Below, piece after piece: positions 8,719 through 25,277 of a stretch of 64,000 nucleotides of DNA; positions within the stretch are counted from its first letter, which is position 1; the number at the start of each line of letters is the position of its first letter. The stretch comes from Myxococcales bacterium (lineage in GTDB: Bacteria; Myxococcota_A; Polyangia; Polyangiales; DASUME01). The stretch is from contig JASGJH010000001.1 of the NCBI GenBank assembly GCA_047601445.1, positions 7,360,001 through 7,424,000 of the forward strand, read 5' to 3'. The position numbers and the translations under genes are program-made. Below the pieces are notes generated by a model that saw only the letters and a list, made by a program, of their open reading frames with translations, searched no databases and was not told the origin of the DNA.

Positions 8719-8809
8719 GATGGAGGCACGCTAACACGAGTCCGCCACGCCGCAGCTGCTCGAGTTGACCGCTCTCTTGGCCAAAAGCGCCAAGCGCGTC
8801 CAGCGCGGC

Positions 8810-10378: not shown

Positions 10379-10521
10379 GTCCCCCACTTGCCTCGACTCA
10401 GGTCGCTAGTTGTTGCAGATGGGGCGAAAATCCACAAGTGGTCCCAAAAAGGGGCCAGTATTCTTGACTTTGGCGCTCGCGCGCACCTAATTGCGCGGCT
10501 GGTCCGGCGCAAGAGGTGCGG

Positions 10522-11508
10522 ATGAGCGGCGTTTCACAGGGCTCGGCAGGCAAGCGTTACGGCTTGAGCATCGTCGTGCCGGTCTACAACGGTGCGAGCA
10601 CCATCGAGGCGCTGGTGGATGCGCTGGCTGGGCTCACCATCGAAGGCGGCCAGGAGATCATCCTGGTCAACGACGGCAGCCCCGACAACAGCGCGGAGAT
10701 CTGCCGCAAGCTCACCGGGCGCAAGGACGTACCCGTCACGTTCTGCGATCTCTCCCGCAACTTCGGCGAACACAACGCGGTGATGGCCGGGCTCTCGCAA
10801 GCGCGCGGGGACTACGTCATCAACATGGACGACGATCTGCAGAACCCGCCCGAGGAAGTGGCGCGGCTCTACGACTACACGCGCCAAAACGGACTCGACG
10901 TCGTCTACACCTACTACGACAAGAAGGAGCACGCCGGCTGGCGCAACCTGGGCAGTTGGCTCGCCAATCGCTCGGCCGACCTCCTGCTCGACAAGCCGCG
11001 CGGACTCTACCTCTCGAGCTTCCGCTGCATGTCGGCGTTTCTGGTGAAAGAGGTGGTGCGCCACACCGGGCCCTATCCCTACGTGGACGGTCTCATCATG
11101 CAGACCACTCAGCGCATCGGCAGCTTGAACGTCAAGCACCTGCCGCGCGCCGTGGGTCGCAGCAATTACACGATGCGCAAGCTGGTGCGCCTGTGGCTAT
11201 CGATCTTCCTGAACTTCTCGGTGGCGCCTTTGCGGGTCGCCTCGGTGTTCGGGCTGGGACTCGCCGTGCTCGGTGTGCTCGCTTTCGCGGCCGTGGCCTA
11301 CGAGGCGGTGGTGCAAGGTGGCACGCCGCGCGGTTGGGCTTCGGTGATGGGGGCGGTGCTGCTGCTCTCGGGAGCCCAGATGCTCATGCTCGGGATCATC
11401 GGCGAATACCTGGGGCGGTTGTTCATGACCACCAATGCGCGTCCGCAGTACATCATTCGCGAGACGGTGCAGCCGGACGCGGAGCTCAAGAGCAGGAGCG
11501 CCGGCTGA
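10522..11508 (+). CDS. GT2 polyprenol-phosphate glycosyltransferase (ArnC/GtrB-like)
   Basis: Motifs LSIVVPVYN, VNDGSPD, SRNFGEHNA and MDDDLQNPP, plus two C-terminal TM helices. Confidence 0.9.
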   Translation: MSGVSQGSAGKRYGLSIVVPVYNGASTIEALVDALAGLTIEGGQEIILVNDGSPDNSAEICRKLTGRKDVPVTFCDLSRNFGEHNAVMAGLSQARGDYVINMDDDLQNPPEEVARLYDYTRQNGLDVVYTYYDKKEHAGWRNLGSWLANRSADLLLDKPRGLYLSSFRCMSAFLVKEVVRHTGPYPYVDGLIMQTTQRIGSLNVKHLPRAVGRSNYTMRKLVRLWLSIFLNFSVAPLRVASVFGLGLAVLGVLAFAAVAYEAVVQGGTPRGWASVMGAVLLLSGAQMLMLGIIGEYLGRLFMTTNARPQYIIRETVQPDAELKSRSAG

Positions 11509-11587
11509 GCGCGGGCTCGATAGCAGGAGCGCGCGCTCCACGCGGCGTGCGTCAGCTTCGTCGTGGCCCTGGCAGGGAGATCTCAAC

Positions 11588-12715
11588 ATGATCTTGATGA
11601 ACGACTTCAAACGCCACGTCGACCTACTGCACGATGAGCTGCAGGCGGCCATGGAGCGCGTGCTGCGCAGCGGCTGGTTCGTGCTCGGCAAGGAGGTCGA
11701 GGCCTTCGAGCGTGAATTCGCCGACTACGTGGGCGCGCCCTTCGCGGTGGGCGTGGCCAACGGTATGGATGCGCTGCAGCTCGGCTTGATGGCCTGGGAC
11801 ATCGGGCCCGGCGACGAAGTGATCACCACGCCCAACTCGGCCTTCGCCAGCACACTCGCCATCCTGCGCGTGGGCGCCACGCCGGTGTTCGTGGATATCG
11901 ACGAGCGCAGCTATGCTCTCGACGCCAGGCTCGTGCGCGGGGCCATCACCGAGCGCACGCGCGCCATCTTGCCGGTACACATCTACGGGCGCGCCGCCGA
12001 GCTGGAGTCGCTCGCGGAGCTCGCTTCCCAACACGGGTTGATGCTGTTGAACGATGCCTGTCAGGCCCATGGCGCCACCTATCGCGGGCGCTCCATTCCG
12101 AGCTTCGGCGATGCGGCGGCCTACAGCTTCTATCCCACCAAGAACCTCGGCTGCTTCGGGGATGGCGGCATGATCGTGTGCTCCGACGCCGCTCGCCACG
12201 CGCGCCTGCGCTCGCTGCGCGACTACGGACAGGCCAAGCGCTACCACCACCTCGAGGCAGGGCTGAATAGTCGGCTCGACGAGCTGCAGGCGGCGGTGCT
12301 GCGCGTGAAGCTCGCCCACTTGCGCGCCCACACCGAGCGCCGACGTGCCATCGCTTCCAAGTACATCGAGGGGCTCAGCGGGTTGCCACTGGTGTTGCCC
12401 CAGTACGATGCCGAGGCCGTTTGGCACCTGTTCGTGGTGCGCACCCCGCAGCGCGACGCGCTGTCCAAGTTCCTCGCGAGCCAGGACGTGCAGAGCCTGG
12501 TGCATTATCCGGTGCTGATCCCGGCCCAGCCGGCCATTCACAGCTCGCCCGCCCAAGGGCGTGCTTCGACGCCCATTCCTTACACGCGCGGCAGCTTGCC
12601 AGTGGCCGAGCGCTGCGCCGACGAGTTCCTGTCGCTCCCCATCCACGCCGAACTCAGCGACGTCGAAGTCGAGCGCGTGTGTCAGGCCGTGCGCGCCTAC
12701 TTCGAGCGCGCGTGA
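11588..12715 (+). CDS. DegT/DnrJ/EryC1/StrS PLP-dependent sugar aminotransferase
   Basis: Motifs GVANGMDAL, DACQAHGA, SFYPTKNLG..GDGG and NSRLDELQAA. Confidence 0.92.
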   Translation: MILMNDFKRHVDLLHDELQAAMERVLRSGWFVLGKEVEAFEREFADYVGAPFAVGVANGMDALQLGLMAWDIGPGDEVITTPNSAFASTLAILRVGATPVFVDIDERSYALDARLVRGAITERTRAILPVHIYGRAAELESLAELASQHGLMLLNDACQAHGATYRGRSIPSFGDAAAYSFYPTKNLGCFGDGGMIVCSDAARHARLRSLRDYGQAKRYHHLEAGLNSRLDELQAAVLRVKLAHLRAHTERRRAIASKYIEGLSGLPLVLPQYDAEAVWHLFVVRTPQRDALSKFLASQDVQSLVHYPVLIPAQPAIHSSPAQGRASTPIPYTRGSLPVAERCADEFLSLPIHAELSDVEVERVCQAVRAYFERA

Positions 12716-13677
12716 GCGAAGCGGCTCCGCAGGGCAAGCCGCGTTCGGCGCTGTTCGGCCGCCTGATGCTGGGCACCATCCTGGTGTTCTTCGGGCTCTC
12801 GGCCGCCGAGCTCGTGCGGCGCTGGCGCGCCGAGCCCTTCGAGCTCTCGCTGTCCTGGGCGCTGCTCTCGATGCTGCCGTTGTTCGTGGGGTACGCGGGT
12901 GTGGCCTTCGCCTTCCAGCGCATCCTCACGACCCAGGCTCCGGGCCAGGCGCCGTTTCCCGCGGTCTTCGAGCTCTATTGCCGCGGCCTCATCGCTCGCT
13001 ATTTGCCGGCCAAGGTGGGCATCCCAGCGGTGCGCATGGCGGCCGCCAAGGAGTTCGGGGTCACGCCGGCATTCATGGCGGCCTCCGCAGTGCTCGAAGC
13101 GCTCTCGTCTCTCGCCACGGCGGGGTTGTTGGTGGCAGGCGTGGCGCTCGGTCCCTGGCCCATCGTCGGGTTGAGTGCGCTGTCAACGCAGCCATGGGCT
13201 CCCTGGGCCATCGCGGCCATCGTGCTCGGCGTGGCGATGCTCGCGGCCATCGACGTGCGCTTCTATCCGCGCCAGTTGATGACCTTTCTGCGCCTCGAAC
13301 AGCGCAAGGGGCCGCTGCTGCCGCTGTGGTGGATCGCGGGCGAGGCCTGGCTTTGGATCGCGAATGCGGCTTCGTGTGTGTTGGTGGTGCGTGCGCTGAC
13401 CGGCTCGTCGGAGGCCATGTTGCTCGGCGGAGCCTCGGGCATCATCGCGCCTGCGCTCGGGTTCTTCGTGGTGATCGCGCCGGGAGGACTCGGCGTGCGC
13501 GAGGCCATCGCGGTGGCCCTGATGGCGCCGGAAATCGGTGCCACCAAGGCGCTCGCGTTCGGCCTGGTCTCGCGCGCGGTACTGCTGGTCAGCGAGCTCG
13601 TGCTGTGGCTCGGGGCACGGGCGTGGCTCGGCGTCGCGCGGCGTGCGCAGGTCGAAGAGGGAACCCGGCAAGAGTAG
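12712..13677 (+). CDS. Flippase-like membrane protein (lysylphosphatidylglycerol-synthase TM/YbhN family)
   Basis: GTG start overlaps the aminotransferase stop (GTGA). Motifs ARYLPAKV and APGGLGVRE, with many TM helices. Confidence 0.75.
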   Translation: MSEAAPQGKPRSALFGRLMLGTILVFFGLSAAELVRRWRAEPFELSLSWALLSMLPLFVGYAGVAFAFQRILTTQAPGQAPFPAVFELYCRGLIARYLPAKVGIPAVRMAAAKEFGVTPAFMAASAVLEALSSLATAGLLVAGVALGPWPIVGLSALSTQPWAPWAIAAIVLGVAMLAAIDVRFYPRQLMTFLRLEQRKGPLLPLWWIAGEAWLWIANAASCVLVVRALTGSSEAMLLGGASGIIAPALGFFVVIAPGGLGVREAIAVALMAPEIGATKALAFGLVSRAVLLVSELVLWLGARAWLGVARRAQVEEGTRQE

Positions 13678-13868
13678 GGCGCTCGTCATGCCGTGCAGTC
13701 GGTGCAGGAGACCGCGCACGACTACGTCTCGCGAAAACGAAAGCGAATACGAGCGCCGAGTCCCTGAACGAACACGCGGTGGAGCTAGAATACGCCGCTA
13801 ACGAAGCCCATGGTAGGTAGGCCCGGTGCCGCACCATTTTGCATCGGGACAGAAAGAGGACGGCGTCT

Positions 13869-14372
13869 ATGACCAAACGCAACGGCGAGCTCGCAGCGCT
13901 GACGGAACGCTTTCGCGCCCTGGGCGCCAAGAATCCGGTCGACTGGGCCAGCTCCCAGATCGGAGAAGGCATCCCGCAGCTCCATCGCTATCTGTTCTTG
14001 CGTCAGGCCTGGCGCGCCATCGTGTCGGACGACGATCACGCGTGGATCGACGCCAACATCGCAGCGACCAAGCGTGACCCAAACGCACCCTACGCTGGTG
14101 TCGGGCACGCGCTCGCGGCGATGCGTGAGAAGGGCGTGGACGACGAGGACATCGCGCAACTGGTGCGCGGCATGCAGGCCGAGCTCCTATTCAGCTTCTG
14201 CTACCTGCTCGAGGACCCGAACTTCGAAGATGCCGACGCCATGGGCGTGAGCTGGTCTCTGGTGGCACTCGACGAACAGGGCGAGCCCACGGGACCCATT
14301 CCCGGTTTGCACGAGTCGGTGCTGGAGTTGGATCCCACCGGGCGGGACATGCGTCCCAAGCGGCGCCCGTAG
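13869..14372 (+). CDS. Hypothetical protein
   Basis: 167-aa ORF with an AGAGGA RBS and host-like codon use. No motif recognised. Confidence 0.65.
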   Translation: MTKRNGELAALTERFRALGAKNPVDWASSQIGEGIPQLHRYLFLRQAWRAIVSDDDHAWIDANIAATKRDPNAPYAGVGHALAAMREKGVDDEDIAQLVRGMQAELLFSFCYLLEDPNFEDADAMGVSWSLVALDEQGEPTGPIPGLHESVLELDPTGRDMRPKRRP

Positions 14373-14652
14373 CGCCCGCCCTACCGACCACTGCGTCCGC
14401 AAGCTTGCTTGCAGCGCGAGGGCTGCCTGCGATTGGCTCTACGGTCCTGTCTCGTCGTCCCGATGCAGGGAGGGGTGATCTGCGGAGACATGACGGTACG
14501 AACTTCATTTAACTCCACGAGTCGCGCAACCTCAGCGTGGAGGGCGCGTCCGCCGTGGCCTTCGGTGCTGCGCGAGCTGCGAAGATGCGAGCGCCGCTTC
14601 CGCAATTTCCTCTGACACAAAATACCTATGTTATCGTTCCCGACATCAGGAC

Positions 14653-15456
14653 ATGAAGCTTCGTTGTCACGGGTTGCAGGTGCTCATCGTCGAAGACGAC
14701 CGGCGCCTCGCGGATAGTCTGGGCTACCTCCTTGCGTCGGAAGGCGCCGAAGTGACCATCGCCTCGACGGTCGACTCAGCGCGTAGCCATCTGACGAGCG
14801 ACGTTCTTTGGGATCTCGTGTTGCTCGACATCAAGCTGCCCGACGGAGACGGCTTCGACGTGCTCGACGTGATCTCGCAAAAAGGCCTGAAAAGGACGGC
14901 CATCGTCGCAGTTTCGGGGAACCTGCAAGAGCCCAAGCGGGCCCTGCGACTTCAAGCCAGTCGAGCTGTCTTGCTGCCCAAGCCGTTCGAGGCGGGAGAT
15001 CTGCTCGCGGCTATCGAAGGGGCCATGCTGCTCACCGCCTCCGAGCCCAGCACTTCGCCGTTGGGAGGACGATCGGGAACCTATCCGGTGCGACTCTCGT
15101 TCGGCCCGATCTCGCTTCAGCTCATCCGGCAGTCCGTGGCCGTCCAGGGCGAGCCCATCGATCTGCGGCCAACCCAGTTTCGCATTCTCGCGCAGCTGCT
15201 CTCGAACCCGGGTAAAGCGCTGACGGTCGCCGAGTTGGTGGACACGGCACTGCGAGGGTTTCACGGCGACGGCAGTGCGAACATTCGGTTTCAGATCCAC
15301 GGATTGAGACGCAAGCTCGGCGCCGCAGGGCGTCTGATCGAGACTGCCTCGGGCGGATACGGAGTCGGCCTCGAGCGCGTGCGGAATTCGCCAGAAGACG
15401 AACCGCCTCTGACGAACGCGAACGACGAGCTCTACGAGGCCGACGGTACGGATTAG
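14653..15456 (+). CDS. OmpR/PhoB-type response regulator (receiver + winged helix), no adjacent kinase
   Basis: Receiver motifs VLIVEDD, LLDIKLPDGDG and LPKPF; C-terminal QIHGLRRKL...IET..GGY. AGGA RBS. Confidence 0.85.
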   Translation: MKLRCHGLQVLIVEDDRRLADSLGYLLASEGAEVTIASTVDSARSHLTSDVLWDLVLLDIKLPDGDGFDVLDVISQKGLKRTAIVAVSGNLQEPKRALRLQASRAVLLPKPFEAGDLLAAIEGAMLLTASEPSTSPLGGRSGTYPVRLSFGPISLQLIRQSVAVQGEPIDLRPTQFRILAQLLSNPGKALTVAELVDTALRGFHGDGSANIRFQIHGLRRKLGAAGRLIETASGGYGVGLERVRNSPEDEPPLTNANDELYEADGTD

Positions 15457-15583
15457 CAAACGCTAACGGTGCGAGTGCGCAAGAGAGCCACTTGTGGCGC
15501 CGTGCATTAGCAAACGCTAACGCGCTCGTAGTGCGATCGATGGACAGCGCGGTGCCGATGGCACGAATTAGCAAAAGCTAACG
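15452..15583. promoter_or_regulatory. Three copies of the 17-bp box ATTAGCAAA(C/A)GCTAACG (palindromic core TTAGC-N4-GCTAA)
   Basis: Copies at 15452-15468, 15506-15522 and 15567-15583, with one mismatch in total and spacers of 37 and 44 nt. The regulatory role is inferred. Confidence 0.6.
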
Positions 15584-15768
15584 CGCGGACTCCGATCTCT
15601 CGTGATAATCCCGTGCAAGCTTTCTTACGGTGGAAGAGGAGTAGCGCGTGGCGCTCTCCTATCTTCGAGCTCGTAGTCGATGGTGACGAGGGGGGAGGTC
15701 CGGGGGGACGCCATGCAGCGTCGGGGCCGCGTATTTAAGGTTCAGGCCCGCGACGTGCGCTGTGGCGT

Positions 15769-16056
15769 CTAACACTCGTAGTCGACGATGGCGACGGCTC
15801 GAGAGAGCTCGCGCATCACGCCTAGAACTACCCGGTGGGCCGGGTGCTTTTCGTATGCCTCGAGTGCGCTGCGATCATCGAAGCACACCGTCGCAACGAT
15901 GTCGTACGAGAACGACGTAGCAGCGAAGTCTGCTCCGATCTCGAGAGCGCGAATGCTCTCGATGTCCTTCCGCAAGGATCCGATCGCTGCCACGGCACGC
16001 TCGAGATTCTCGGGAGATCTGGCGTGAAGTTTGAACATGACCACGTGCTTGATCAT
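15769..16056 (-). CDS. Dabb (stress-responsive alpha/beta barrel) family protein
   Basis: Motifs MIKHVVMFK, F.D..ALEAY..HPAH and the C-terminal IVDYE. Confidence 0.88.
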   Translation of the reverse strand: MIKHVVMFKLHARSPENLERAVAAIGSLRKDIESIRALEIGADFAATSFSYDIVATVCFDDRSALEAYEKHPAHRVVLGVMRELSRAVAIVDYEC

Positions 16057-16229
16057 CTCTGCCTCTCTTGGCGGGGAGCGCGACGACTTAGTGAGCGCGA
16101 TGTTGTGTGGAGAATCTAGTTAGCACACTCGCGCGCGACGGATGCTTTACGGGTTTGCGTCTTTCGGGACAGGAGAGCGCTCCGTGGCCAACGGCTCCTG
16201 TCTACGTTCGACATGGGGGAGGAACGAGA

Positions 16230-16817
16230 ATGAAGAGCGTGGGCGTGTACTGTGGATCGGCCGAAGGAACTCGGCCGCGATATCTCGAAATCTCGAAGCA
16301 GGTCGGCCGAGCGCTCGCGACGCGTGACCTCGAGCTCGTGTACGGAGGCGCGAAGATCGGACTCATGGGGGCCATGGCGGACGCCGCGCTGGAGGCGGGG
16401 GGACGCGTTTTCGGGGTGCTCCCTGCTGCCTTGAGCAAGGTCGAGATCGCACATCCCGGGCTCACGGAATTTCGCGTCGCAGGCTCGATGCACGAGCGAA
16501 AAGCGATGATGGCCATGCGATCGGACGCTTTCGTCGCGTTGCCCGGCGGGTACGGCACGCTGGACGAGATCTTCGAAGCGCTCACCTGGGCCCAGGTCGG
16601 CATTCATCAGAAGCCGTGCGCGTTGCTCAATGTCGATGGGTTCTTCGACTCGCTGATCGAGTACCTCGATCACGCGACCAGCGAAGGCTTCATTCGGCCG
16701 ATGCATCGACCCATGCTGCTCGTCGAGACCGACTTCGAGCGTTTGCTCGACCGACTGCAGCTTCATTTTCCAGCTTCGAATGCGCCGATCATGTCCGCGC
16801 ATTCTGTCGAGGCATGA
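16230..16817 (+). CDS. log: LOG family cytokinin riboside 5'-monophosphate phosphoribohydrolase
   Basis: Motifs VGVYCGS, LVYGGAKIGLMG, SMHERKA, the signature LPGGYGTLDE, and KPCALLNVDGFFD. GGGGGAGG RBS. Confidence 0.92.
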   Translation: MKSVGVYCGSAEGTRPRYLEISKQVGRALATRDLELVYGGAKIGLMGAMADAALEAGGRVFGVLPAALSKVEIAHPGLTEFRVAGSMHERKAMMAMRSDAFVALPGGYGTLDEIFEALTWAQVGIHQKPCALLNVDGFFDSLIEYLDHATSEGFIRPMHRPMLLVETDFERLLDRLQLHFPASNAPIMSAHSVEA

Positions 16818-16892
16818 AGGCCAGGGAATTCAGCGCTCAAGCGCAGCGTGCGGTGCTTTTCGATGGGGGCTTTCGAGGGGGGATATCACGCC

Positions 16893-19013
16893 ATGAAGAT
16901 TCACATGATTCTTGGTCCTACAGGGGTGGGGAAAACGAACCGGTCCATCTCTTTGGCGCGGCAGAAGAGCGTGCCAGTCATCTCTCTGGATCGATTCCAG
17001 ATCTTCGATGAGCTCGCGACGGGAACCGGGCGACCGACTCCCGAGGAACTCGCAGGAACCGAGCGCATTTTCCTCGCCAGGCGTCGTGTCGCTGAGGGCG
17101 AGTTTCCCGCCGATGAGGCCTATCAGGCTCTCCTCGGATGGGTCGACGCGCTCTCGCATCATCACGAACTCATCCTCGAAGGTGGTTCCATCTTGCTGTG
17201 CTCGACTCTGTTCGAGCAGGGATTCCTGAGCGCGCACCAAGTCGAAATTCAGAATCTGACGATCCGCGATGTCGACTTCCACCGAAACACCGTCAAGAGC
17301 CGCATCCGTGAAATGCTGGTCTCCACCGATGGTCGCCCCTCGATGGTCGAAGAGCTGGCCAGGGTGTGGAACGAGCCAGCGCAGCTCTCCTTCCTGGAGA
17401 CTATCACCGGCTACGACATCATCATCGAGCATTGCCGGCGGCTTCGCATGACGCCGGGCGATGTCGCGGCGCAGCCGGTGGCCGCCGACCTAGTGGATGC
17501 GATCGCCGAGTCACACGTCGACTACTCGCTGCGACAGATCGCGGCCTTCGCGCGACTCTTGAGCGACCATACGTCACGCTGGAAAGTCCAGTACATCTCC
17601 GAATACACCAGGCCCAATGCGAGCGTGGCGCACGAGTCCTCACGCGGGACGGCATCCGTGGAGGAGAGCTCCAAAACGCCCAGTGACAGCCAGTTCGACC
17701 TCTCGTCGCCGGCCAGGCTCGATGACCCCTATTCGCTGTACGCTCGCCTGCGGCGAGAAGCCCCGGTGTTCCACGACGCCGCGCTCGATGCCTGGATCAT
17801 CAGCCGCTATGACGACGTGTGCTCGATCCTGAAGGACCCGGTGCGGTTTTCTTCGATAGGTGTCCTGAAGGTCAAGGCCGAGCCGCCGCCGGAGGTCGCC
17901 GCGGTGCTCGCGCAGGGAATCCCGTACGTGCGTACCCTCATCGACAACGACCCCCCGGGCCACACGCGCTTTCGCAACCTGGTCAACCGAGCTTTCGTTC
18001 CTCAGCGGGTCAACCAGCTCGAACCAAAGATTTACGCGAGCGCCAACGCCCTGATCGACGAGATCGTCGACAGCGGGGAGTGCGATCTCATGGAGCGCTT
18101 TGCGTTCCCGCTGCCCATCTTCGTCATCGCGGAGATCTTGGGCTTGCCGCGCACGGACGTCGGTGATCTCAAACGCTGGTGTGACGACTGGATGGCACTC
18201 CAGTCTGGAACGGCCCCCGTCGAACACCTCGTGCAATGTGCTCACAGCTATCTCGCGATGCAGCAGTACTTCCTCCAGAAGGTCGCGGAGCGTACGCATG
18301 AGCCGCAGGACGATATGTTGAGCGCGCTCATCCAGGCGCGCGTCGACGACGACGCACCCTTGGCTACGGGCGAGCTGGTTCGCTTGCTGATGAGTCTCTT
18401 GGTCGCGGGCCACGAGACCACCACGCATTCCATCGGCAACGTGCTGACGCTCCTGCTGAGGAACCCGACTCAACTCGCTCTGCTTCGCTCGAACCCGAGC
18501 CTCACGGCGCAAGCGGTCGAGGAAGGATTGCGGATGGACGCCCCCGTCCAGAGCCTGTTCCGCCGGGTCACAGAGGACACCACGGTCGGCGGGACCAGCC
18601 TGCCCAAGGGGGCACGGGTCATGATCCTGTACGGATCGGCCAACCGCGACGAGGCTCAGTTCAAGGATCCCGACCGTTTCGATGTTGCGCGCGGCTCAGG
18701 CGGAAAGCATCTCGCGTTCAGCCGCGGCATTCACTTCTGCCTTGGTGCCACGTTGGCCCGCATGGAGATCCGCATTGCGCTCGATCTCTTGATCCAGCGC
18801 TTGCCCGAGCTGCAGTTGGATGAGAGCCTGCCCCTGGAGCGAGTGCCCCACTTCTTTTTGCGCGGCTACAAGCGCCTGCCACTCAAGTGGAATCCGAACC
18901 CGCAGTCCGCAGGCTACCCGAGTGGAGTGTTCGGTAAGTTCGTGAATACGAGCGAGAGTGCTCTCGCTGACTCGTCCACGCTCGAGCCGAAGAAGACGGC
19001 ATCGCATGACTAG
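16893..19013 (+). CDS. Adenylate isopentenyltransferase (Ipt/Tzs-type) fused in frame to a cytochrome P450
   Basis: The N-terminal ~235 aa carry the P-loop ILGPTGVGKT, VISLDRFQ...LATGTGRPTPEELAGTERIFL and LILEGGSI. The C-terminal ~400 aa carry DPPGHTRFR, I-helix VAGHETT, EGLRMDAP (ExxR), DPDRFD and heme motif FSRGIHFCLG. GAGGGGGG RBS. Confidence 0.88.
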   Translation: MKIHMILGPTGVGKTNRSISLARQKSVPVISLDRFQIFDELATGTGRPTPEELAGTERIFLARRRVAEGEFPADEAYQALLGWVDALSHHHELILEGGSILLCSTLFEQGFLSAHQVEIQNLTIRDVDFHRNTVKSRIREMLVSTDGRPSMVEELARVWNEPAQLSFLETITGYDIIIEHCRRLRMTPGDVAAQPVAADLVDAIAESHVDYSLRQIAAFARLLSDHTSRWKVQYISEYTRPNASVAHESSRGTASVEESSKTPSDSQFDLSSPARLDDPYSLYARLRREAPVFHDAALDAWIISRYDDVCSILKDPVRFSSIGVLKVKAEPPPEVAAVLAQGIPYVRTLIDNDPPGHTRFRNLVNRAFVPQRVNQLEPKIYASANALIDEIVDSGECDLMERFAFPLPIFVIAEILGLPRTDVGDLKRWCDDWMALQSGTAPVEHLVQCAHSYLAMQQYFLQKVAERTHEPQDDMLSALIQARVDDDAPLATGELVRLLMSLLVAGHETTTHSIGNVLTLLLRNPTQLALLRSNPSLTAQAVEEGLRMDAPVQSLFRRVTEDTTVGGTSLPKGARVMILYGSANRDEAQFKDPDRFDVARGSGGKHLAFSRGIHFCLGATLARMEIRIALDLLIQRLPELQLDESLPLERVPHFFLRGYKRLPLKWNPNPQSAGYPSGVFGKFVNTSESALADSSTLEPKKTASHD

Positions 19014-19036
19014 TCGGGCGCGTGGGCTGAATCGAC

Positions 19037-19468
19037 TTAGCGATATCTCGCGTCGACGGAGCTCGGCAGGCTCTTCAACCAGCCGATGGCCTCGTCTTCT
19101 CTCGCGAAGAGCTTGGTAGGCGTCTCTCGCGTGCCGTACACGGCGAGGAAGAAGTTGCCGAGGATGTTGCCGACGAGCGAGCCTCCCAGCAGCGCCAGCG
19201 CCTGGAAGTCTTTGAGCCCTCCGAAGTACGCCCGCGCCTCGTGATCGATCTCCTTACACTTGCGGATATCGACCAAGATGGCCAGACGTTCACCCTTGGC
19301 GAGCTTCAGCTGCGCCTCGACGTTCTCTTTGGCTCCGGCCAGCGTGCACACGGATCCCTGATTGAATTCGAAGCGCAGGATACCGAGGTCTCTGTCGATC
19401 CAAGTGGACCCGGTGCTCGTCTGCACCTTTTCTATCTCCGGACGGAGCTTTCCCCCCTGCGCCCTCAT
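19037..19468 (-). CDS. Small STAS/SEC14 (SpoIIAA)-like protein
   Basis: Pattern ILVDIRK...IDHEARAYF...ALALL..S.VGNILGNFFL...PTKLF..EDEAIGWL. GGAG RBS. Converges on the IPT-P450 gene. Confidence 0.7.
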   Translation of the reverse strand: MRAQGGKLRPEIEKVQTSTGSTWIDRDLGILRFEFNQGSVCTLAGAKENVEAQLKLAKGERLAILVDIRKCKEIDHEARAYFGGLKDFQALALLGGSLVGNILGNFFLAVYGTRETPTKLFAREDEAIGWLKSLPSSVDARYR

Positions 19469-19688
19469 TCGATCACTCCTTTGCTACCTCCGCGGCCGAG
19501 TCCATGACGCGATGCGTCTGCTGGCCGCATGCCCGAGAAGGCAGCATGTGAGCAATGATGCCTGCCCCCCGATTGCCCCAGCAAGCGGATACTGAGGGGG
19601 AGGGGTGAAAAGCAGGTTAGTGAAAATACACAGGTTATTGGCCAGCCGTGGGTGCGTCATGGGATAGCCCAAACTTGGCAACGATTGA

Positions 19689-20591
19689 CTACGTCCCGGG
19701 CAAGCCGGGCTCCCCCAAGTGACGCAGGCGTGACAGGTCCGCGTGGAAATAGACGCGCTGGATCTTGCCACCGTCGACCTCGAGCAGCAGCGCCGCGAAG
19801 GGCTGGCCGGCCTGCTTGAACACCACCCCTGGCTGCCCGTTGAGCTCGTGATCCTCGATCTGAAGTGAGGCGGCGGTCTTGGCGGTCGTGTGCGCCACGA
19901 AGGCGGCGATGCGCTCGGCTCCCTCCAGTGGGCGCGGCAAGTTGCGCACGCCGTTGGTGGTGCGTCCCTGCTCGCCGCCGTCGGTGATCATCACGGCGTT
20001 GTCGGCCAGCATTTCCACGAGCGCGCGCGTGTCGCCCAGGGTCGCCGCGTCCATGAAGGAGCGCAACAGGCGCAGGTGCTCGGCACGGTCGGTGGGGAGC
20101 GAACGCTTGGTGCTCGCCACCTGCGTGCGGGCGCGCTCGAGGAGCTTGCGGCAGGCGGCCGTGCTCTTGTGGATGAGGTCCGCGATCTCGCTGTGCTCGA
20201 AGTCGAAGACGTCGTGCAAGAGCAGCACGGCTCGCTCGGCTGGGCTCAGGCGCTGCAACATCACCAGGAATGCCATCGAGATCTGCTCGAGGTGTTCGAG
20301 TTCGGAGAGGCTGCTGCGTGCGACATCGACCGGCTCGGGCAGGCGGTCCGAGCGGCTGTGCTCGCGCTGAACCTTGGCGGACTGCAGTTCATTGAGGCAA
20401 AGGCGCGTGACCATGGTGACCAGGTAGGCCTTGGGAGACTCCACCCCCTCGCTGTGCCGCTCCCAACGCAGCCACGCCTCCTGGACGAGGTCTTCGGCGC
20501 GGCCGAGGTCGCCGAGCATGCGATAGGCGAGGGCGATGAGTTCAGGGCGGGCTGCTGCGAACGCAGTGAGGGCCGTAGGGGCCGACGTCAT
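19689..20591 (-). CDS. ECF41/SigJ-type sigma factor with SnoaL-like C-terminal domain
   Basis: Motifs LAYRMLGDLGRAEDLVQEAWLRW, LPEP, AVLLLHDVFDF and TDGG, followed by a SnoaL-like tail. Confidence 0.88.
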   Translation of the reverse strand: MTSAPTALTAFAAARPELIALAYRMLGDLGRAEDLVQEAWLRWERHSEGVESPKAYLVTMVTRLCLNELQSAKVQREHSRSDRLPEPVDVARSSLSELEHLEQISMAFLVMLQRLSPAERAVLLLHDVFDFEHSEIADLIHKSTAACRKLLERARTQVASTKRSLPTDRAEHLRLLRSFMDAATLGDTRALVEMLADNAVMITDGGEQGRTTNGVRNLPRPLEGAERIAAFVAHTTAKTAASLQIEDHELNGQPGVVFKQAGQPFAALLLEVDGGKIQRVYFHADLSRLRHLGEPGLPGT

Positions 20592-20599
20592 GCCCATGA

Positions 20600-20672
20600 G
20601 ACCGGCCAGCACCGGCGAGCGTGACAGGGGCCGACGAAAAAAAGTGGTCACGCAGGTCGGGGTTGTCCGGTC
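20600..20672. promoter_or_regulatory. Pair of divergent ECF41-type promoters, (T/G)GTCACG-N16-GGTC
   Basis: Minus strand: TGTCACG(20626-20620)-N16-GGTC(20603-20600). Plus strand: GGTCACG(20646-20652)-N16-GGTC(20669-20672). Both resemble the ECF41 consensus TGTCACA-N16-CGTC. Confidence 0.75.
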
Positions 20673-20706
20673 TTAAGCGCAGGCGGACCCAAGCGCCTGG
20701 AGCTCA

Positions 20707-21678
20707 ATGATGTTCAAAGCCTCGAGATTGTGCGGCTTGTCGCTCGTGATCACGCTGGTCACTGGCGCCTGCTACCGATTGCCACCTGCCTCACCCTATC
20801 AGGACCAGCTGCCCCAACGATTGTCTGACACGGGGCTGTACGCGCCTGGCCGGGTGAGCGTCGCTTCGGGCGTGCGCCCCTACGAGCCGAACTACGCGCT
20901 GTGGAGCGACGGCTCCGCCAAGCGACGCTGGATCAAGTTGCCCGATGGCTCGCGCATCGACGTGCGCGACATGGACGACTGGCAGTTTCCGGTGGGTACG
21001 AAGCTGTGGAAGGAGTTCTCGCAGGGCGGCGTCCGGGTGGAGACGCGGCTCTTGCAACGGGTGAGCGAGGCCGAAGGCGGCTGGGCTGCTGCGGCCTATG
21101 TGTGGTCGCTCGATCAGCGGGACGCAGTACGCATGGATCAGGGCATGGTCGACGCGCTCGGCACGCCCCACGACGTGCCCTCGGCGCGGGCCTGTGCCGC
21201 CTGCCACGCGGGCCGCGCTTCGTTCGTGCTCGGCTTCTCGGCGGTGCAGCTCTCGCGGGGGGCGCGCGATGCGCAAGACCTCACGCTGGACGTGCTGGTC
21301 GCCGAAGGGGCGCTCTCCGAATCCACGACCTCCCGTGTCGTCCCCGGAGACGCGCAGACCCAACAGGCGCTCGGCTATCTACACGCCAACTGTGGTCACT
21401 GTCATAGCGCGTCGCGTCCACGCACCGCGCGCTCCATGCGTCCGCCGCGCGGACTCGACCTGTTCCTCACCGCGTCGTCCCTGGCACACGTGGAGGACAC
21501 ACCGAGCCATCGCACGCTGCGGGACTACGTCGACGTCGAGCATCCCCACGAGAGTACGCTGCTCTCGCGGATGGCCAAGTCAGGGCTCGTGAAGCGACGC
21601 ATGCCGCCACTCGCCAGCGAGCTGCCCGATCAAGCGGGCATGGAGCTCGTCGCGCGCTTCATCGCCAGCCTGCGCTGA
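20707..21678 (+). CDS. Di-heme c-type cytochrome lipoprotein (SO2930-like)
   Basis: Lipobox TGAC, RLSDTGLY, LWSDGSAKRRWI, FPVGT.LWKEF, heme motifs CAACH and CGHCH, and RMPP. Confidence 0.78.
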   Translation: MMFKASRLCGLSLVITLVTGACYRLPPASPYQDQLPQRLSDTGLYAPGRVSVASGVRPYEPNYALWSDGSAKRRWIKLPDGSRIDVRDMDDWQFPVGTKLWKEFSQGGVRVETRLLQRVSEAEGGWAAAAYVWSLDQRDAVRMDQGMVDALGTPHDVPSARACAACHAGRASFVLGFSAVQLSRGARDAQDLTLDVLVAEGALSESTTSRVVPGDAQTQQALGYLHANCGHCHSASRPRTARSMRPPRGLDLFLTASSLAHVEDTPSHRTLRDYVDVEHPHESTLLSRMAKSGLVKRRMPPLASELPDQAGMELVARFIASLR

Positions 21679-21706
21679 ACGCCTTTCCACTCACACGGAG
21701 GAACCC

Positions 21707-22129
21707 ATGGACCGAAAGACCAAGCTCATCTATTGGATCAGTACATCGATCATCTTCGTGCTCATGTTCGGCAGCGGCCTGACCTTCGCGTTCGCCACCG
21801 AGGCCTTCCAGCGCTTCGGTCTGCCCGATTGGTTTCGCGTCGAGCTCACGGCGGCCAAGTTGATCGGGGCCATGGTGCTGGTGCTGCCGCGCGTGCCCGC
21901 CAAGATCCGCGAGTTTGCCTACTTTGGTTTCGGGCTGACCATCGTGTCGGCCGACATCGCGCATCTCTCGAGCGGAGACACGGCTTGGTACCTGCTGCCG
22001 CACGCGACCTTCTTGGGCCTGCTCTTCACTTCGTACCGCTTGTTTCCGCGGGTGCACGGGGGCGAGTCTCCGGATGCAGCCGCCACCAAGCTTGCGGACG
22101 CTCAGACCATGACTGCGCGGACGGCATGA
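21707..22129 (+). CDS. DoxX family membrane protein
   Basis: Motifs IYWIST, F...GLP.WFRVEL..AKLIG and EFAYFGF; four TM helices. GGAGGA RBS. Confidence 0.85.
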   Translation: MDRKTKLIYWISTSIIFVLMFGSGLTFAFATEAFQRFGLPDWFRVELTAAKLIGAMVLVLPRVPAKIREFAYFGFGLTIVSADIAHLSSGDTAWYLLPHATFLGLLFTSYRLFPRVHGGESPDAAATKLADAQTMTARTA

Positions 22130-22133
22130 GGGG

Positions 22134-24077
22134 TCAGAGCAAGATCACGTCGCCGCAGTAGCGGTTGATGCACTGGGTGGCCTCGCCGCAGCAGTCGCTC
22201 ACGTCGCTGCAGCGCTCGCCGTCCTTGGCGCACTCTTGCTTGGTGGAGCTGCACATGCCGAGCTGGTCCACCGTGAACTCGCCGGCGGGCGGGAAGTTGC
22301 AGTAGCCGCCGCAGCAGTCCGCACCGCTGCGGCATCCGTCGCCGTCTTTCTTGCACGGATCGAGCGCGGTGAAAGCGCGGTGGTTCGAGGTGTCGAAGTC
22401 CTGGCCGGACACGTAGAAGGCGGGGCTGCTCGGGTCGCCGGTGTACTTGCCGTCGGCGGATACCTTGAGTGCGCTGCCCCAGAGCTGACGCTTGAAGCCC
22501 TGGTTGCCGTAGTGGCGCATGGAGTCGAAGAAGATCCAGAAGTAGCCACCCGACGCGACTGGGGACACGGTGGGGTAGTAGGCCTGATGGAGCTCCTCGG
22601 AGCCGAACGGTAGGTAGGTCTTGTTCGAGCTCGCGTCGGCCACCTTATCGAAGCCCATGGCCTTGGCGAGCAGCGTGGCCTGCTTGCTCTTCACGTCGAC
22701 CACGTAGATGTCGCTCTCGGGGCCGCGCGCGATGGCGGCCGAGATGCCCACACCGTTGCCGTCGAAGGCCGAGTCGGAGCCGAGCGCGAACACGGCGCCG
22801 CCGTTGTCGGGCAAGAGGAAGGGCCAACCGGGGTAAAGCGTTGCGTGGCTGTAGATGCTGCGCGCGTTCGCGACCTTGCGGTTCTTGGCGTCGTAGTCCA
22901 TCAACGAGAGGGCGTGGCCGGAGCTTTGTGCATTGTCGTTGAACACCAGCAGGTTTCCGTCGGGGGAGAAGGTGGGCATCATGGCGGTGGTGGGGATGCC
23001 AGAGTTGTTCACTGCGTTGCCGCTGTCCGTCTCGTAGAGTCCAGAGCTGGCCGCCGCTGGCGGGAGCACGCCGCCGTTGAGGAGCGGGCCCACTGTGAGG
23101 CTCGATGCCGAGCTGACGTAGACCGATCCATCGGGTGAGATGCCGACGAAGGAGCCCGACGCGATGCCATGGGAGGGAGCCGGATTGGCCGGCGTCATGG
23201 GCGCGATCTGATACACGGAGCCGGTGCCCGTGATGCCCGTGGCCTCGCTCGCCACCAAACGCGAGCCATTGGCGGAGACCGAGTGACACCCGGTGCACGT
23301 GCCCTGACGTGCGAACTGCGCGGCGTCCTTGCCGGGCTGGATACGCTGGATGGCGCCCCCGCCGCCGAAGCCCCCGCCGGAGGTCTCGTAGCTGTTGTAG
23401 AAGATGGAGCCGCTCAAGGTGGCATTGGCGATCACCAGCTTGCGCGTGAGGGGCCCGCGCGCCGTGTCACCGCTCAGGAAGGAGAGCTCGATGCTGAAAG
23501 GCTCCGCGGGACCCTGGGTGCGCGCGCCCGCTTGCGTCCACACGTTGGCAGGGATTTGGATGCGTCCGTTGGCCGTGGGCTTGAGGCAGCCCTTGTAGTC
23601 GAAGCCCTTGGCGCTGATGTGCAGGTAGATGGCGTCGGCGTTGCTGCCGTCCCACATCATGAGCGGCGCCTTGAGGCCGCGCGGAAAGACGGTGCCTTCG
23701 TACGGATAGAGCACGCGCATGCCCGTGCTGCTGCCACCCGCCATCAACTTGCCGAGCTTGTCGGCCGAGAGGCCGGCGGGATTGTCGGCGCCGCACTGAT
23801 CGACCGCGTAGGGCGCGTCGAGCGGTTGATCGCCGGGCACGTCGGGCTCTGCGTCGCCGTCGCCATCGCCATCGCCGTCGCCCGCTGGATCACCGTCGCC
23901 ATCGCCATCGCCCTTGGCGTCGCCATCGCCGGGGTTGCCTTGGCCGTTGCCTGGCGCGACGGTGCCTTTGGGGTCTCCGCAAGCCGCGCTCGCTAGCGCA
24001 GCCAGCAGTGCAACGAGGAGGCGTGCTCGTGGTGAGCGGAAGCAAGAAGCCGATGTCGAACGAAGCCCTGCGCGCAT
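22134..24077 (-). CDS. TolB-like beta-propeller lipoprotein with GD linker and Cys-rich C-terminus (start uncertain)
   Basis: Lipobox SAAC, GD repeats, YPYEGTVFPRG, CTGCHSVSANG, PTFSPDG, and C-terminal C-x5-CC motifs. Confidence 0.7.
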   Translation of the reverse strand: MRAGLRSTSASCFRSPRARLLVALLAALASAACGDPKGTVAPGNGQGNPGDGDAKGDGDGDGDPAGDGDGDGDGDAEPDVPGDQPLDAPYAVDQCGADNPAGLSADKLGKLMAGGSSTGMRVLYPYEGTVFPRGLKAPLMMWDGSNADAIYLHISAKGFDYKGCLKPTANGRIQIPANVWTQAGARTQGPAEPFSIELSFLSGDTARGPLTRKLVIANATLSGSIFYNSYETSGGGFGGGGAIQRIQPGKDAAQFARQGTCTGCHSVSANGSRLVASEATGITGTGSVYQIAPMTPANPAPSHGIASGSFVGISPDGSVYVSSASSLTVGPLLNGGVLPPAAASSGLYETDSGNAVNNSGIPTTAMMPTFSPDGNLLVFNDNAQSSGHALSLMDYDAKNRKVANARSIYSHATLYPGWPFLLPDNGGAVFALGSDSAFDGNGVGISAAIARGPESDIYVVDVKSKQATLLAKAMGFDKVADASSNKTYLPFGSEELHQAYYPTVSPVASGGYFWIFFDSMRHYGNQGFKRQLWGSALKVSADGKYTGDPSSPAFYVSGQDFDTSNHRAFTALDPCKKDGDGCRSGADCCGGYCNFPPAGEFTVDQLGMCSSTKQECAKDGERCSDVSDCCGEATQCINRYCGDVILL

Positions 24078-24226
24078 GGCGACTCTCCAAGCGAAGACGT
24101 GCAAACCGGCGCGAGCTGCAGGCTCGCCCGCGCAGGACCTTACCCGCAAACCGAGGCCGTCCCTGAAGCTGACGCGTTAGGCCAACTGGTTTGTCGCAGC
24201 CAGCCAAGCACGAAGCCGCCGGCTTT

Positions 24227-25234
24227 TCAGCGGTTCAGCTCGATCATGAGGCCGAGGGTAGTGCGCAGGAAAGGAGACCTGGCTTGAAATAGCAGGCCCG
24301 CATCTTCCACCTCGAAGCGCGGCCGGCGCAGCGGCACGCCGAGGGCGAGCGAGCCCGTGGGCACGACTCTGCCGTAGGGACCAAGGGACAAAGAGAGTCC
24401 GAACAACGAGGCGGCCCATAGGCCCGTATGCGTGGCGGCTTCAGGCAGTCCGGTGCCCCCTCCGTGCTGCGCACCGAGCTCGAGACTCACGCAAGGGGCG
24501 ACCGCGTAGCGTCTGGAGCGCGGCTGCGCGTCGAAGGCAGCCCCGAGCACCGCGTAGCAAGCCTCGAGCTTGGCGGCGACCAATCGGAAGTCGGCTCGAG
24601 CGCCCGGCGCTCCGCCCACCACGTTCACGCGCTCAGGCGTGAAGTAGCTCGCCGACAGCGCTGCCTGGAAGCGACGCGCGCCGATCGCGAGGGCCGCGCC
24701 CCCGGCGAGGCTGGTGCTGGGCAACGAGCCCACATCGAGGCCGAGCAGGGCGCCCAGGCGCACGCTGGTGGCAAGCGGGCGCGAGGCGCGCGCGGGCGCC
24801 TGCGAATCGTCTTGGAGCTCGACAGGGCGCGCGGGCGTCTCGGGCGGAGGGGGAGGCGTAGGCGAGGCCGGTGGGGGTGGACGGGGAGGCTTGGGTTCAG
24901 GCGCATTCTGATCGGACGCCATGCTGATCACGAGCAACACGGCCTCGGTCAGCTCTTCGCAGTCGTGCCCGTAGAGCAGGCGCTGCTCGCGGCCCTCGGC
25001 ATGGTGCAACCGGATGCGTGCACGCAGCTCGCCGTTCGGCGTGTGGTCGATCCAGACCTCGGCGCGCCCTTCGCTCAGAAGGGAAGCTCCCTGGCTGCGC
25101 GCGCGCAGGCGCTCGTCCGCTTCCTGCGCGGACGGACACGTGGAAGGCCCATGCCAGGCAATCGAGAGGTCGGCCCGCGCGCCCGCTACCCAGCCCAGGA
25201 CCCCGATGAAGGCGCACAGCCACTCCCGCGACAT
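24227..25234 (-). CDS. ECF-associated exported protein (CP...C N-domain, Pro linker, beta-rich C-domain), copy 1
   Basis: Signal peptide, W.GP..CP and C.EL.EA..L.I motifs, poly-Pro linker and amphipathic strands. Similar in layout to 31086..32258 and 39155..40072. Confidence 0.7.
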   Translation of the reverse strand: MSREWLCAFIGVLGWVAGARADLSIAWHGPSTCPSAQEADERLRARSQGASLLSEGRAEVWIDHTPNGELRARIRLHHAEGREQRLLYGHDCEELTEAVLLVISMASDQNAPEPKPPRPPPPASPTPPPPPETPARPVELQDDSQAPARASRPLATSVRLGALLGLDVGSLPSTSLAGGAALAIGARRFQAALSASYFTPERVNVVGGAPGARADFRLVAAKLEACYAVLGAAFDAQPRSRRYAVAPCVSLELGAQHGGGTGLPEAATHTGLWAASLFGLSLSLGPYGRVVPTGSLALGVPLRRPRFEVEDAGLLFQARSPFLRTTLGLMIELNR

Positions 25235-25277
25235 GGAGCGCCGAGCATACTCGAGTCACGCTCCGCACAAAGCACTT

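What the first reader, a model, noticed from the sequence alone, without database searches (positions are those of the whole stretch)
16230..19013. Candidate two-gene cytokinin pathway: LOG plus an adenylate isopentenyltransferase-cytochrome P450 fusion in a myxobacterium-like genome
Seen: a LOG gene (PGGxGTxxE) is followed 75 nt later by one 706-aa ORF. Its N-terminus has Ipt/Tzs-type motifs (GPTGVGKT, SLDRFQ...TGTGRPT.EEL.GT.R, LILEGGS) and its C-terminus is an intact P450 (AGHETT, ExxR, FxxGxHxCLG). Established: adenylate IPTs (Agrobacterium Ipt/Tzs, Rhodococcus fascians FasD) prenylate AMP/ADP/ATP, P450s hydroxylate the side chain to zeatin types (plant CYP735A), and LOG releases the free base. 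R. fascians encodes IPT, P450 and LOG as separate fas genes; Claviceps has an IPT-LOG fusion next to a P450. Inference: all three steps are encoded in two genes, using an IPT-P450 fusion I do not recognise from characterised systems, in a lineage not known as a plant pathogen. The product could be a developmental or inter-kingdom signal (Dictyostelium uses cytokinins in sporulation) or a novel prenyl-adenine metabolite. No ferredoxin is encoded here, so the P450 must borrow redox partners.
Basis: partly seen in the sequence, partly recalled or inferred. Interest (0 to 1): 0.93.

Follow-up and report, generated by a model that had tools for sequence, protein, structure and literature searches.

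The report
Fused cytokinin prenyltransferase-P450 with LOG
A myxobacterium-like genome has one gene that fuses a cytokinin-type prenyltransferase to a cytochrome P450, next to a LOG-family gene, and the same P450 family recurs with such prenyltransferases elsewhere, so the genes likely make and release a hydroxylated, zeatin-like version of the plant hormone cytokinin; this is untested.

Summary
LOG (16230-16817) is followed 75 nt later by a 706-aa IPT-P450 fusion (16893-19013). The N-domain is an adenylate IPT: Tzs E 8e-38 against MiaA 1e-5, with the catalytic residues kept. The fusion recurs in 6 other protein clusters, and one contig repeats the set Dabb, LOG, fusion.

The P450 belongs to a 14-member clade: 7 fused, 1 beside idi+ipt on an Ensifer plasmid (a different IPT lineage), 2 probably paired with an IPT, 4 unknown. 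It is only 32-33% identical to R. fascians FasA. The host has no IspG/IspH hits and the IPT lacks the HMBPP residues, so any side-chain hydroxyl would need the P450.

Best reading (0.58): DMAPP+AMP gives iPRMP, the P450 hydroxylates it, and LOG frees the base. The three-enzyme logic is known (fas, Claviceps), and myxobacterial IPTs are already in print. The fusion and this P450 clade were not found in my paper searches. A core developmental role is unlikely. New variant of a known kind.

The parts
15769..16056 (-). Dabb (stress-responsive A/B barrel) protein, 95 aa; co-inherited accessory gene, function untested
   Evidence: PF07876 E 2e-17. 66% identical to the Dabb gene directly upstream of LOG in L011, against 29% to the host's other copy. 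No hit in the 20-kb Ensifer locus.
16057..16229 (.). 173-nt gap between divergent Dabb and LOG genes; presumed promoter region
   Evidence: Sequence. No sigma-70 consensus site was found in 15400-19700.
16230..16817 (+). LOG phosphoribohydrolase, short type I-like, 195 aa (MHERK 87-91, PGGYGTLDE 105-113)
   Evidence: TIGR00730 190 bits; best PDB match 5zbj E 1e-56. 73% identical to the LOG in L011, against 56% to the host's second LOG.
16893..19013 (+). 706-aa adenylate IPT-cytochrome P450 fusion
   Evidence: One open frame; PF01745 + PF00067; the same architecture in P0006-P0010 and P0041.
16893..17558 (+). IPT domain (aa 1-222): T10, D33, R34 and R137 kept (Tzs T10, D33, R34, R138); Tzs D173/H214 are T172/Y211
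   Evidence: Alignment to Tzs 2ze5, E 8e-38; residue table; trees.
17574..17687 (+). Unconserved linker (about aa 228-265), predicted flexible
   Evidence: Variable in length and sequence in A1; pLDDT below 50 in the full-length model.
17688..18893 (+). Soluble bacterial-type P450 domain (about aa 266-667) with heme Cys616 and clade-specific K328, Q437, R497, S501, H512, S554, R558
   Evidence: Model pLDDT 90.3, pTM 0.91; best structural match CreJ, Z 52.4, rmsd 1.7 over 401 residues; clade contrast.

Best explanation
This is likely a de novo cytokinin-type biosynthetic cassette, in which the IPT domain is predicted to join DMAPP to AMP, the tethered P450 would hydroxylate the prenyl side chain of that nucleotide to a zeatin-type nucleotide, and LOG would release the free base. 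Shown: the genes, domains, catalytic residues, recurrence and co-inheritance. Inferred from characterised relatives: iPRMP synthesis with DMAPP and AMP rather than HMBPP, and LOG activity. Inferred from genomic context and structure only: that the P450 acts on the IPT product, that it prefers the nucleotide, and that the hydroxyl goes on a terminal methyl (trans or cis cannot be told). Electrons would come from host ferredoxins encoded elsewhere. The product is most likely an accessory outward-acting signal or metabolite, not a core developmental signal.
For: (1) IPT class: Tzs E 8e-38 against four MiaA at 1-3e-5; TIGR00174 38 bits against a cut-off of 149; D33-R34 as in adenylate IPTs, where MiaA has D-S; MiaA branch separate at 100/100; the host has a separate MiaA-like gene. 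(2) Donor: T170/T172/Y211 match Nostoc NoIPT1 (T171/V173/Y216), which used AMP only and used HMBPP at about 0.5% of the DMAPP rate (PMC4574047 passages). The host has no IspG or IspH hit, two HMG-CoA reductases and a type 2 IDI, so HMBPP is probably not available. (3) P450 linkage: the 14 closest P450s (55-70% identity apart from the query itself) form one clade (SH-aLRT 97). 7 are fused to IPT. P0179 lies about 1 kb from idi+ipt on Ensifer adhaerens plasmid pD and is the only match above 60% among 72,556 plasmids. The Ensifer IPT is 32% identical and sits in another IPT clade (98/90), so the P450 was paired with two IPT lineages. P0175 and P0178 share their longest-contig lengths (4019, 5125) and sources with IPTs P0011 and P0012. 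Five genomes holding the next-nearest P450s (47-50%) gave only weak partial PF01745 hits (5 of 5). (4) Nucleotide substrate: the clade has K328 (13/13 vs 2/45), R497 (14/14 vs 3/47), S501 (14/14 vs 0/47), S554 (14/14 vs 0/47) and R558 (13/14 vs 1/47) against the outgroup P450s. The best fold match is CreJ, solved with an aryl phosphate (5xjn; Z 52.4 and 51.9 vs 49.5 next). (5) Precedent: CYP735A hydroxylates iP nucleotides, and fasA mutants implicate FasA in tZ formation (PMC8234997 section 3).
Against: No activity was measured. The P450 is not an orthologue of FasA (32-33%) or of CYP735A, so regiochemistry cannot be transferred. 4 of 14 clade members have no known IPT link; P0176 (= L014) follows a radical SAM gene with no IPT in the 3.1 kb upstream, and its contig ends inside the gene. 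The pairing of P0175 and P0178 rests on contig length only. The loss of D173/H214 is the common state (only 8 of 114 rows have D+H), so it is not an adaptation to the P450. The CreJ match has 30% identity, the rows below it are close, and its phosphate-binding residues could not be mapped. One fusion (P0010) has W at the Tzs R138 column. Several bacterial LOGs were assayed only with AMP.
Confidence: 0.58

Rival explanations
1. Same first step, but the P450 makes a non-canonical oxidised prenyl-adenine (over-oxidation to the aldehyde or acid, epoxide, ring oxidation, or a cyclised pyrrolyl-purine), possibly helped by the Dabb protein.
For: The P450 clade is unrelated to known cytokinin hydroxylases and has its own conserved pocket residues. 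Dabb is co-inherited in the window and in L011. [quoted passage not shown] Myxobacteria make terpene-adenosines tailored by a proposed P450 (PMC7321100 passages).
Against: No Dabb was found in the Ensifer locus, so it is not needed for the IPT-P450 pair. The PDB relatives of this Dabb are of unknown function. Terminal allylic hydroxylation is the outcome described for CYP735A and inferred for FasA.
Confidence: 0.25
2. The P450 is an off-switch: it oxidises the carbon next to N6 and cleaves the side chain, replacing cytokinin dehydrogenase.
For: CKX genes often flank bacterial IPTs (24 neighbourhoods, PMC10018469 passage) and none was seen in this cassette; P450 N-dealkylation is established chemistry (general knowledge).
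Against: Fusing synthesis to destruction in one chain would be futile; the fusion is kept in 7 clusters, and the Ensifer pair adds idi, which supplies more donor.
Confidence: 0.06
3. The IPT and LOG make iP, and the P450 is a passenger acting on an unrelated substrate.
For: P450s are common near IPTs (PF00067 counted 17 times, PMC10018469 Table A.4). One clade member sits behind a radical SAM gene. Some fusions have a Met just before the P450 start, a trace of formerly separate genes.
Against: The P450 clade goes with IPT across two IPT lineages and at least two phyla. The P450 half is more conserved (55-70%) than the IPT half (46-56%).
Confidence: 0.08
4. The N-domain is a tRNA dimethylallyltransferase or is inactive.
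For: Weak TIGR00174 hit over aa 5-117.
Against: Far below the cut-off; full-length PF01745 match; R34 rather than S; the domain is about 225 aa; the host has a separate MiaA-like gene; the tree separates them 100/100.
Confidence: 0.03

Closest known systems
Rhodococcus fascians fas operon (FasA P450, ferredoxin, FasD IPT, FasE CKX-like, FasF LOG; pFiD188)
   Same: The same three enzyme types, IPT, P450 and LOG; FasA is implicated in iP-to-tZ hydroxylation (PMC8234997 section 3).
   Different: All genes are separate and the ferredoxin is its own. FasD is 26-27% and FasA 32-33% identical to our domains and lie in other clades. No methyltransferases, CKX or ferredoxin here; the host is not a known plant pathogen.
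IPT-LOG fusions with a clustered P450 (Claviceps purpurea, Fusarium spp.; IPT-LOG also in R. fascians A21d2)
   Same: Two-gene compaction of the three steps (PMC7913349 passage; PMC8234997 section 4).
   Different: There LOG is fused to IPT and the P450 is free; here the P450 is fused to IPT and LOG is free. Bacterial IPT-LOG fusions fall in other branches of the IPT tree.
Agrobacterium Tzs/Tmr (PDB 2ze5) and Nostoc NoIPT1
   Same: Adenylate IPT fold and the catalytic T10, D33, R34, R138; 37% identity to Tzs; donor pocket as in NoIPT1.
   Different: Tzs/Tmr have D173/H214 and make tZ directly from HMBPP; this enzyme lacks both, and its host lacks detectable IspG/IspH, so a P450 would supply the hydroxyl. 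Neither is fused.
Stand-alone IPTs of Chondromyces (listed in PMC10018469 Table A.2)
   Same: Adenylate IPT in a myxobacterium; P0040 is a near branch in the tree.
   Different: The two same-order genomes with a stand-alone IPT (G291, G398) have no LOG, P450 or Dabb hit in the 19.5 kb around it, and their best P450 is 39-40% identical.
CreJ (PDB 5gwe, 5xjn), a bacterial P450 solved with an alkylphenyl phosphate
   Same: Best structural match to the P450 model: Z 52.4, rmsd 1.7 over 401 residues.
   Different: 30% identity and a different pathway; whether the phosphate site is shared was not tested.

Membership tests
Adenylate IPT (PF01745, Tzs/Ipt type) | Full-length PF01745 match, stronger than IPPT/MiaA | tested here: met
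   194 bits over profile 1-225, no PF01715 hit; TIGR00174 38 bits vs cut-off 149.
Adenylate IPT (PF01745, Tzs/Ipt type) | Catalytic T10, D33, R34, R138 (Tzs numbering) | tested here: met
   T10, D33, R34, R137; residue roles from PMC8234997 section 2.1.
Adenylate IPT (PF01745, Tzs/Ipt type) | Groups apart from tRNA IPTs in a tree | tested here: met
   MiaA split 100/100 in a 43-row tree and SH-aLRT 100 in a 65-row tree.
Adenylate IPT (PF01745, Tzs/Ipt type) | Prenylates free AMP/ADP/ATP in vitro | not testable with these tools
   Needs an enzyme assay.
Tzs/Tmr-type HMBPP-using IPT | Asp173 and His214 in the donor pocket | tested here: not met
   T172 and Y211.
tRNA dimethylallyltransferase MiaA | TIGR00174 above cut-off, D-S motif, about 300 aa | tested here: not met
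   38 bits, D-R motif, about 225-aa domain.
Cytochrome P450 (soluble bacterial type) | Heme Cys motif, ExxR, acid-alcohol pair, P450 fold | tested here: met
   C616, E544xxR547, E508-T509; model pLDDT 90, TM about 0.9 to solved P450s.
FasA-type cytokinin hydroxylase | Orthology to R. fascians FasA | tested here: not met
   32-33% identity; 39 other P450s in the tree are closer (FasA was used as outgroup and is a long branch).
Cytokinin trans-hydroxylase (CYP735A-like activity) | Hydroxylates iP nucleotides to tZ nucleotides | not testable with these tools
   Context and pocket residues fit a nucleotide substrate; regiochemistry is unknown.
LOG, type I | PGGxGTxxE motif, catalytic Arg and Glu, no N-terminal extension | tested here: met
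   PGGYGTLDE 105-113, MHERK 87-91, 195 aa; TIGR00730 above cut-off; type definitions from PMC8234997 section 4. The narrower NF058542 model scored 138 vs cut-off 300.
LOG, type I | Prefers cytokinin nucleotides over AMP | not testable with these tools
   Needs an assay.
fas-type cytokinin operon | IPT, P450, ferredoxin, CKX and LOG as separate linked genes | tested here: not met
   No ferredoxin or CKX family hit among the window proteins scanned; IPT and P450 are fused.

The most novel reading that the evidence does not exclude
An undescribed, IPT-dedicated family of soluble bacterial P450s with a nucleotide-phosphate pocket has been recruited independently of CYP735A and FasA, has fused to and split from IPT more than once, and has moved between myxobacteria and rhizobia. 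With LOG and a Dabb barrel it makes an oxidised prenyl-adenine that is not a classical zeatin, used by non-pathogenic myxobacteria to act on plants, algae or amoebae.
Probability: 0.22. Interest if true: 0.85.

Novelty: new variant of a known kind. Interest (0 to 1): 0.64.

Why it matters
The bacterial route from iP to zeatin is described as unclarified: CYP735A has not been purified because it is unstable, and FasA has not been characterised as a protein (PMC8234997 section 3). A soluble, well-folding P450 tethered to its IPT, with unfused relatives such as the Ensifer enzyme, would make that step directly testable by assay and crystal structure. It would be a third independent P450 solution to cytokinin side-chain oxidation and would explain how a mevalonate-only bacterium could make zeatin-type compounds without HMBPP. 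It would also offer a two-gene route to hydroxylated cytokinins and extend hormone-type chemistry to uncultured myxobacteria. If the product is not zeatin, it is a new prenyl-purine.

Tried and rejected
- Idea that loss of D173/H214 co-evolved with the P450: rejected, because only 8 of 114 IPT-like rows have both residues.
- Recent horizontal acquisition by composition: cassette GC is 0.59-0.63 against 0.663 for the genome, but GC3 lies at the 27th-55th percentile; inconclusive.
- Insertion ends: a DNA search of window 8000-26000 in 9 congeners gave no flanking synteny and only LOG-paralogue-like hits inside the cassette among the listed matches (35 further matches were not listed).
- The genome-contig scan used one N-terminal pattern and returned 11 loci, none with a fusion; the pattern does not fit the P0006 group, so this is not evidence of absence.
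- IPT search: 0 of 400 genomes of the phylum. P450-clade searches: 0 of 400 of the order and 8 of 400 of the class, at only 47-50%. Only the top 4-7 candidates per genome were scored, so these mean 'not found in those searched'.
- Sequencing runs: none was listed, so there is no expression data.
- The full-length model from 6 sequences was poor between the domains (pTM 0.46); no domain orientation can be read from it.
- CreJ phosphate-binding residues could not be mapped: it was not among the printed alignments and two papers were not held.
- The neighbourhood of the Acuticoccus P450 (P0177) could not be read, and none of 10 IPT clusters looked up matched its contig length.
- Promoter scan: 0 sites.
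- Earlier findings: no note on this fusion by words or by sequence.
- No complex prediction was sent.
Full report
Observation. LOG runs 16230-16817 (195 aa) and a single 706-aa frame runs 16893-19013. Pfam gives IPT (PF01745, aa 1-222, 194 bits) and P450 (PF00067) in one chain. A search with the IPT part among proteins of 388-1236 aa returned 6 hits among 5,971 candidates: the window's own protein and five other IPT-P450 proteins at 46-56% identity. A profile search of 1.84 billion representatives added P0041. The fusion is therefore real and occurs in 7 clusters at 90% identity, one of them with 5 members. Among the best 150 profile hits, the other long proteins that I scanned were IPT-LOG or LOG-IPT fusions (5 of the 8 scanned).

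A third gene. A Dabb-family gene lies at 15769-16056 on the minus strand, 173 nt from LOG. Of 22 metagenome loci confirmed, one (L011) held an IPT. It has Dabb, LOG and the fusion in a row on one strand. Its Dabb is 66% and its LOG 73% identical to the window's, whereas the host's own paralogues are 29% and 56% identical. The three genes travel together in these two loci. The role of Dabb is unknown; its PDB relatives are uncharacterised, and it was not found in the Ensifer locus.

The IPT domain. It matches Agrobacterium Tzs (2ze5) at E 8e-38 over 221 residues and four MiaA structures at 1-3e-5 over the N-terminal part only. The catalytic T10, D33, R34 and R138 of Tzs (roles from PMC8234997 section 2.1, read in full) are T10, D33, R34 and R137 here; MiaA rows have D-S instead of D-R. 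Trees of 65 of the 122 aligned rows and of 43 rows separate MiaA with full support and place six of the seven fusions with unfused P0011-P0014 (89/93), apart from Tzs, FasD and the IPT-LOG fusions. The host has its own MiaA-like gene elsewhere. Tzs D173 and H214, needed for efficient use of HMBPP, are T172 and Y211, as in Nostoc NoIPT1, which used AMP only and HMBPP at about 0.5% of the DMAPP rate (PMC4574047, passages). This state is common (only 8 of 114 rows have D+H), so it predicts the donor but is not a special adaptation. The host genome (one contig, 98.7% complete) gave no IspG or IspH hit, two HMG-CoA reductases and a type 2 IDI. DMAPP is therefore the likely donor, and a hydroxylated side chain would need a second enzyme.

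The P450 domain. All catalytic motifs are present, and the domain alone folds confidently (pLDDT 90.3, pTM 0.91). Of 61 homologues at E 1e-100 or better (only the 8,000 best candidates were scored), the query and 13 others at 55-70% form one clade (SH-aLRT 97 in a 41-row tree); the rest are at 43-49%. Seven of the 14 are fused to IPT. P0179 is on Ensifer adhaerens plasmid pD, divergent from idi and ipt, and is the only match above 60% among 72,556 plasmids (8 records passed E 1e-70). The Ensifer IPT is 32% identical to ours and falls in a different IPT clade, while its P450 nests among the fused ones (96). That re-pairing is the strongest sign that the P450's substrate is the IPT's product. 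P0175 and P0178 share longest-contig length and source with IPTs P0011 and P0012, which suggests split pairs but is indirect. Four members have no known link; one of them follows a radical SAM gene on a contig that ends inside it. Five genomes with the next-nearest P450s (47-50%) gave only weak partial IPT-family hits (5 of 5). Fused and unfused forms are interleaved (at least 3 changes forced by well-supported branches), and some linkers end in a Met just before the P450, so fusion or splitting happened more than once. R. fascians FasA is only 32-33% identical.

Nucleotide or base? Against 47 outgroup P450s, the clade has K328, R497, S501, S554 and R558, plus Q437 and H512 (counts under the best explanation). 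Their placement near the substrate pocket is inferred from P450 anatomy, not measured on the model. The best structural match is CreJ (Z 52.4, rmsd 1.7 over 401 residues; next family 49.5; also first in Foldseek), which was solved with an alkylphenyl phosphate according to its PDB title. This fits a phosphorylated substrate such as iPRMP, as for plant CYP735A, and fits the lack of a LOG beside the Ensifer pair. It is a lead only: identity is 30% and CreJ's phosphate ligands could not be mapped.

Likely mechanism. DMAPP + AMP gives iPRMP (IPT domain; inferred from relatives, about 0.9). The tethered P450 oxidises iPRMP (inferred from context, about 0.85), most simply at a terminal methyl to a zeatin-type nucleotide (about 0.7 given that). 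LOG removes ribose 5'-phosphate. Electrons come from elsewhere: no ferredoxin family was hit among the window proteins scanned, while the genome has 8 Fer2 matches, including a stand-alone 2Fe-2S ferredoxin. Overall 0.58. The main rival is a non-canonical oxidised prenyl-adenine (0.25).

Biological role. No full-length IPT was found in 9 of 9 congeners (72-99% complete) or the other 51 relatives. It was found in 2 of 400 genomes of the order and 0 of 400 of the phylum. Those two (G291, G398) carry a stand-alone IPT with no LOG, P450 or Dabb hit in the 19.5 kb around it. No CHASE domain was found in the host. The cassette is therefore accessory, and a core developmental signal is unlikely; an outward-acting product is more plausible but has no direct evidence. 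Composition does not show a recent transfer. The host's placement among myxobacteria is inferred: same-order genomes have IPTs that branch with a protein its source names as Chondromyces, and earlier unchecked notes on this genome say the same.

What is in print. IPT, P450 and LOG together are known from the fas operon and from fungal IPT-LOG plus P450 clusters (PMC7913349, passages). Wei et al. (PMC10018469; abstract, passages, sections 3.1 and 3.2, and supplement rows) found IPTs in 90 of 30,238 genomes, two of them Chondromyces, and counted PF00067 17 times in IPT neighbourhoods; the words 'fusion' and 'fused' do not occur in their main text. PMC6071968 (passages) has no 'P450' or 'fusion'. 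Nine searches (listings only, unless named above) showed no IPT-P450 fusion and no description of this P450 clade. The library lacks most subscription journals and bioRxiv supplements, so this is not proof. The Fusarium paper on new cytokinins was not held; its chemistry is recalled. PMC7321100 (passages) shows that myxobacteria make terpene-adenosines by other transferases.

Verdict. Real, recurrent and coherent; a new variant of a known kind. The new elements are the IPT-P450 architecture, an IPT-linked P450 clade unrelated to FasA or CYP735A, and a co-inherited Dabb gene. The interest lies in making the bacterial iP-to-zeatin step testable with a soluble enzyme.

Noticed in passing
window 41723-43552 (+): 610-aa protein with both heparan sulfate N-deacetylase domains (PF25119 E 4e-16, PF12062 E 6e-25), an animal NDST-like architecture in a bacterium.
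   Followed up: no
L059 7699-10711 (Ensifer adhaerens NER9 plasmid pD): P450 (63% identical to ours) divergent from idi and ipt, beside an IS66 element and repABC; no LOG or Dabb hit in the 20 kb. A culturable model for this P450 clade.
   Followed up: partly
L033 5819-10698 (Streptomyces sp. NPDC005808): ATP-grasp, TrpA-like, IPT, LOG and P450 genes in a row; the P450 is only 33% identical to ours, so probably another independent P450 recruitment.
   Followed up: partly
L034 and L036, about 8000-9300: Actinomycete IPT directly followed by LOG, with no hit to our P450 in the 16 kb.
   Followed up: no
L014 2213-3816: Unfused clade P450 (identical to P0176 over 210 aa) starts inside the 3' end of a radical SAM gene; the contig ends within the P450.
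   Followed up: partly
P0057 (543 aa): LOG-IPT fusion in the reverse order (LOG first), branching with the Tzs/Ralstonia clade.
   Followed up: no
P0183, P0190, P0195-P0197, P0200, P0203, P0206, P0208: Among the next-nearest P450s (46-49%) are many fusions with a Rieske [2Fe-2S] domain (PF00355), possibly carrying their own electron donor.
   Followed up: no
P0010: A fusion with W at the Tzs R138 column; its IPT half may be impaired, or the alignment is shifted by one.
   Followed up: no
window 14653-15456 (+) and 19037-19468 (-): An OmpR-type response regulator with no kinase beside it upstream, and a DUF7793 gene convergent downstream; DUF7793 had no hit in the related loci.
   Followed up: partly
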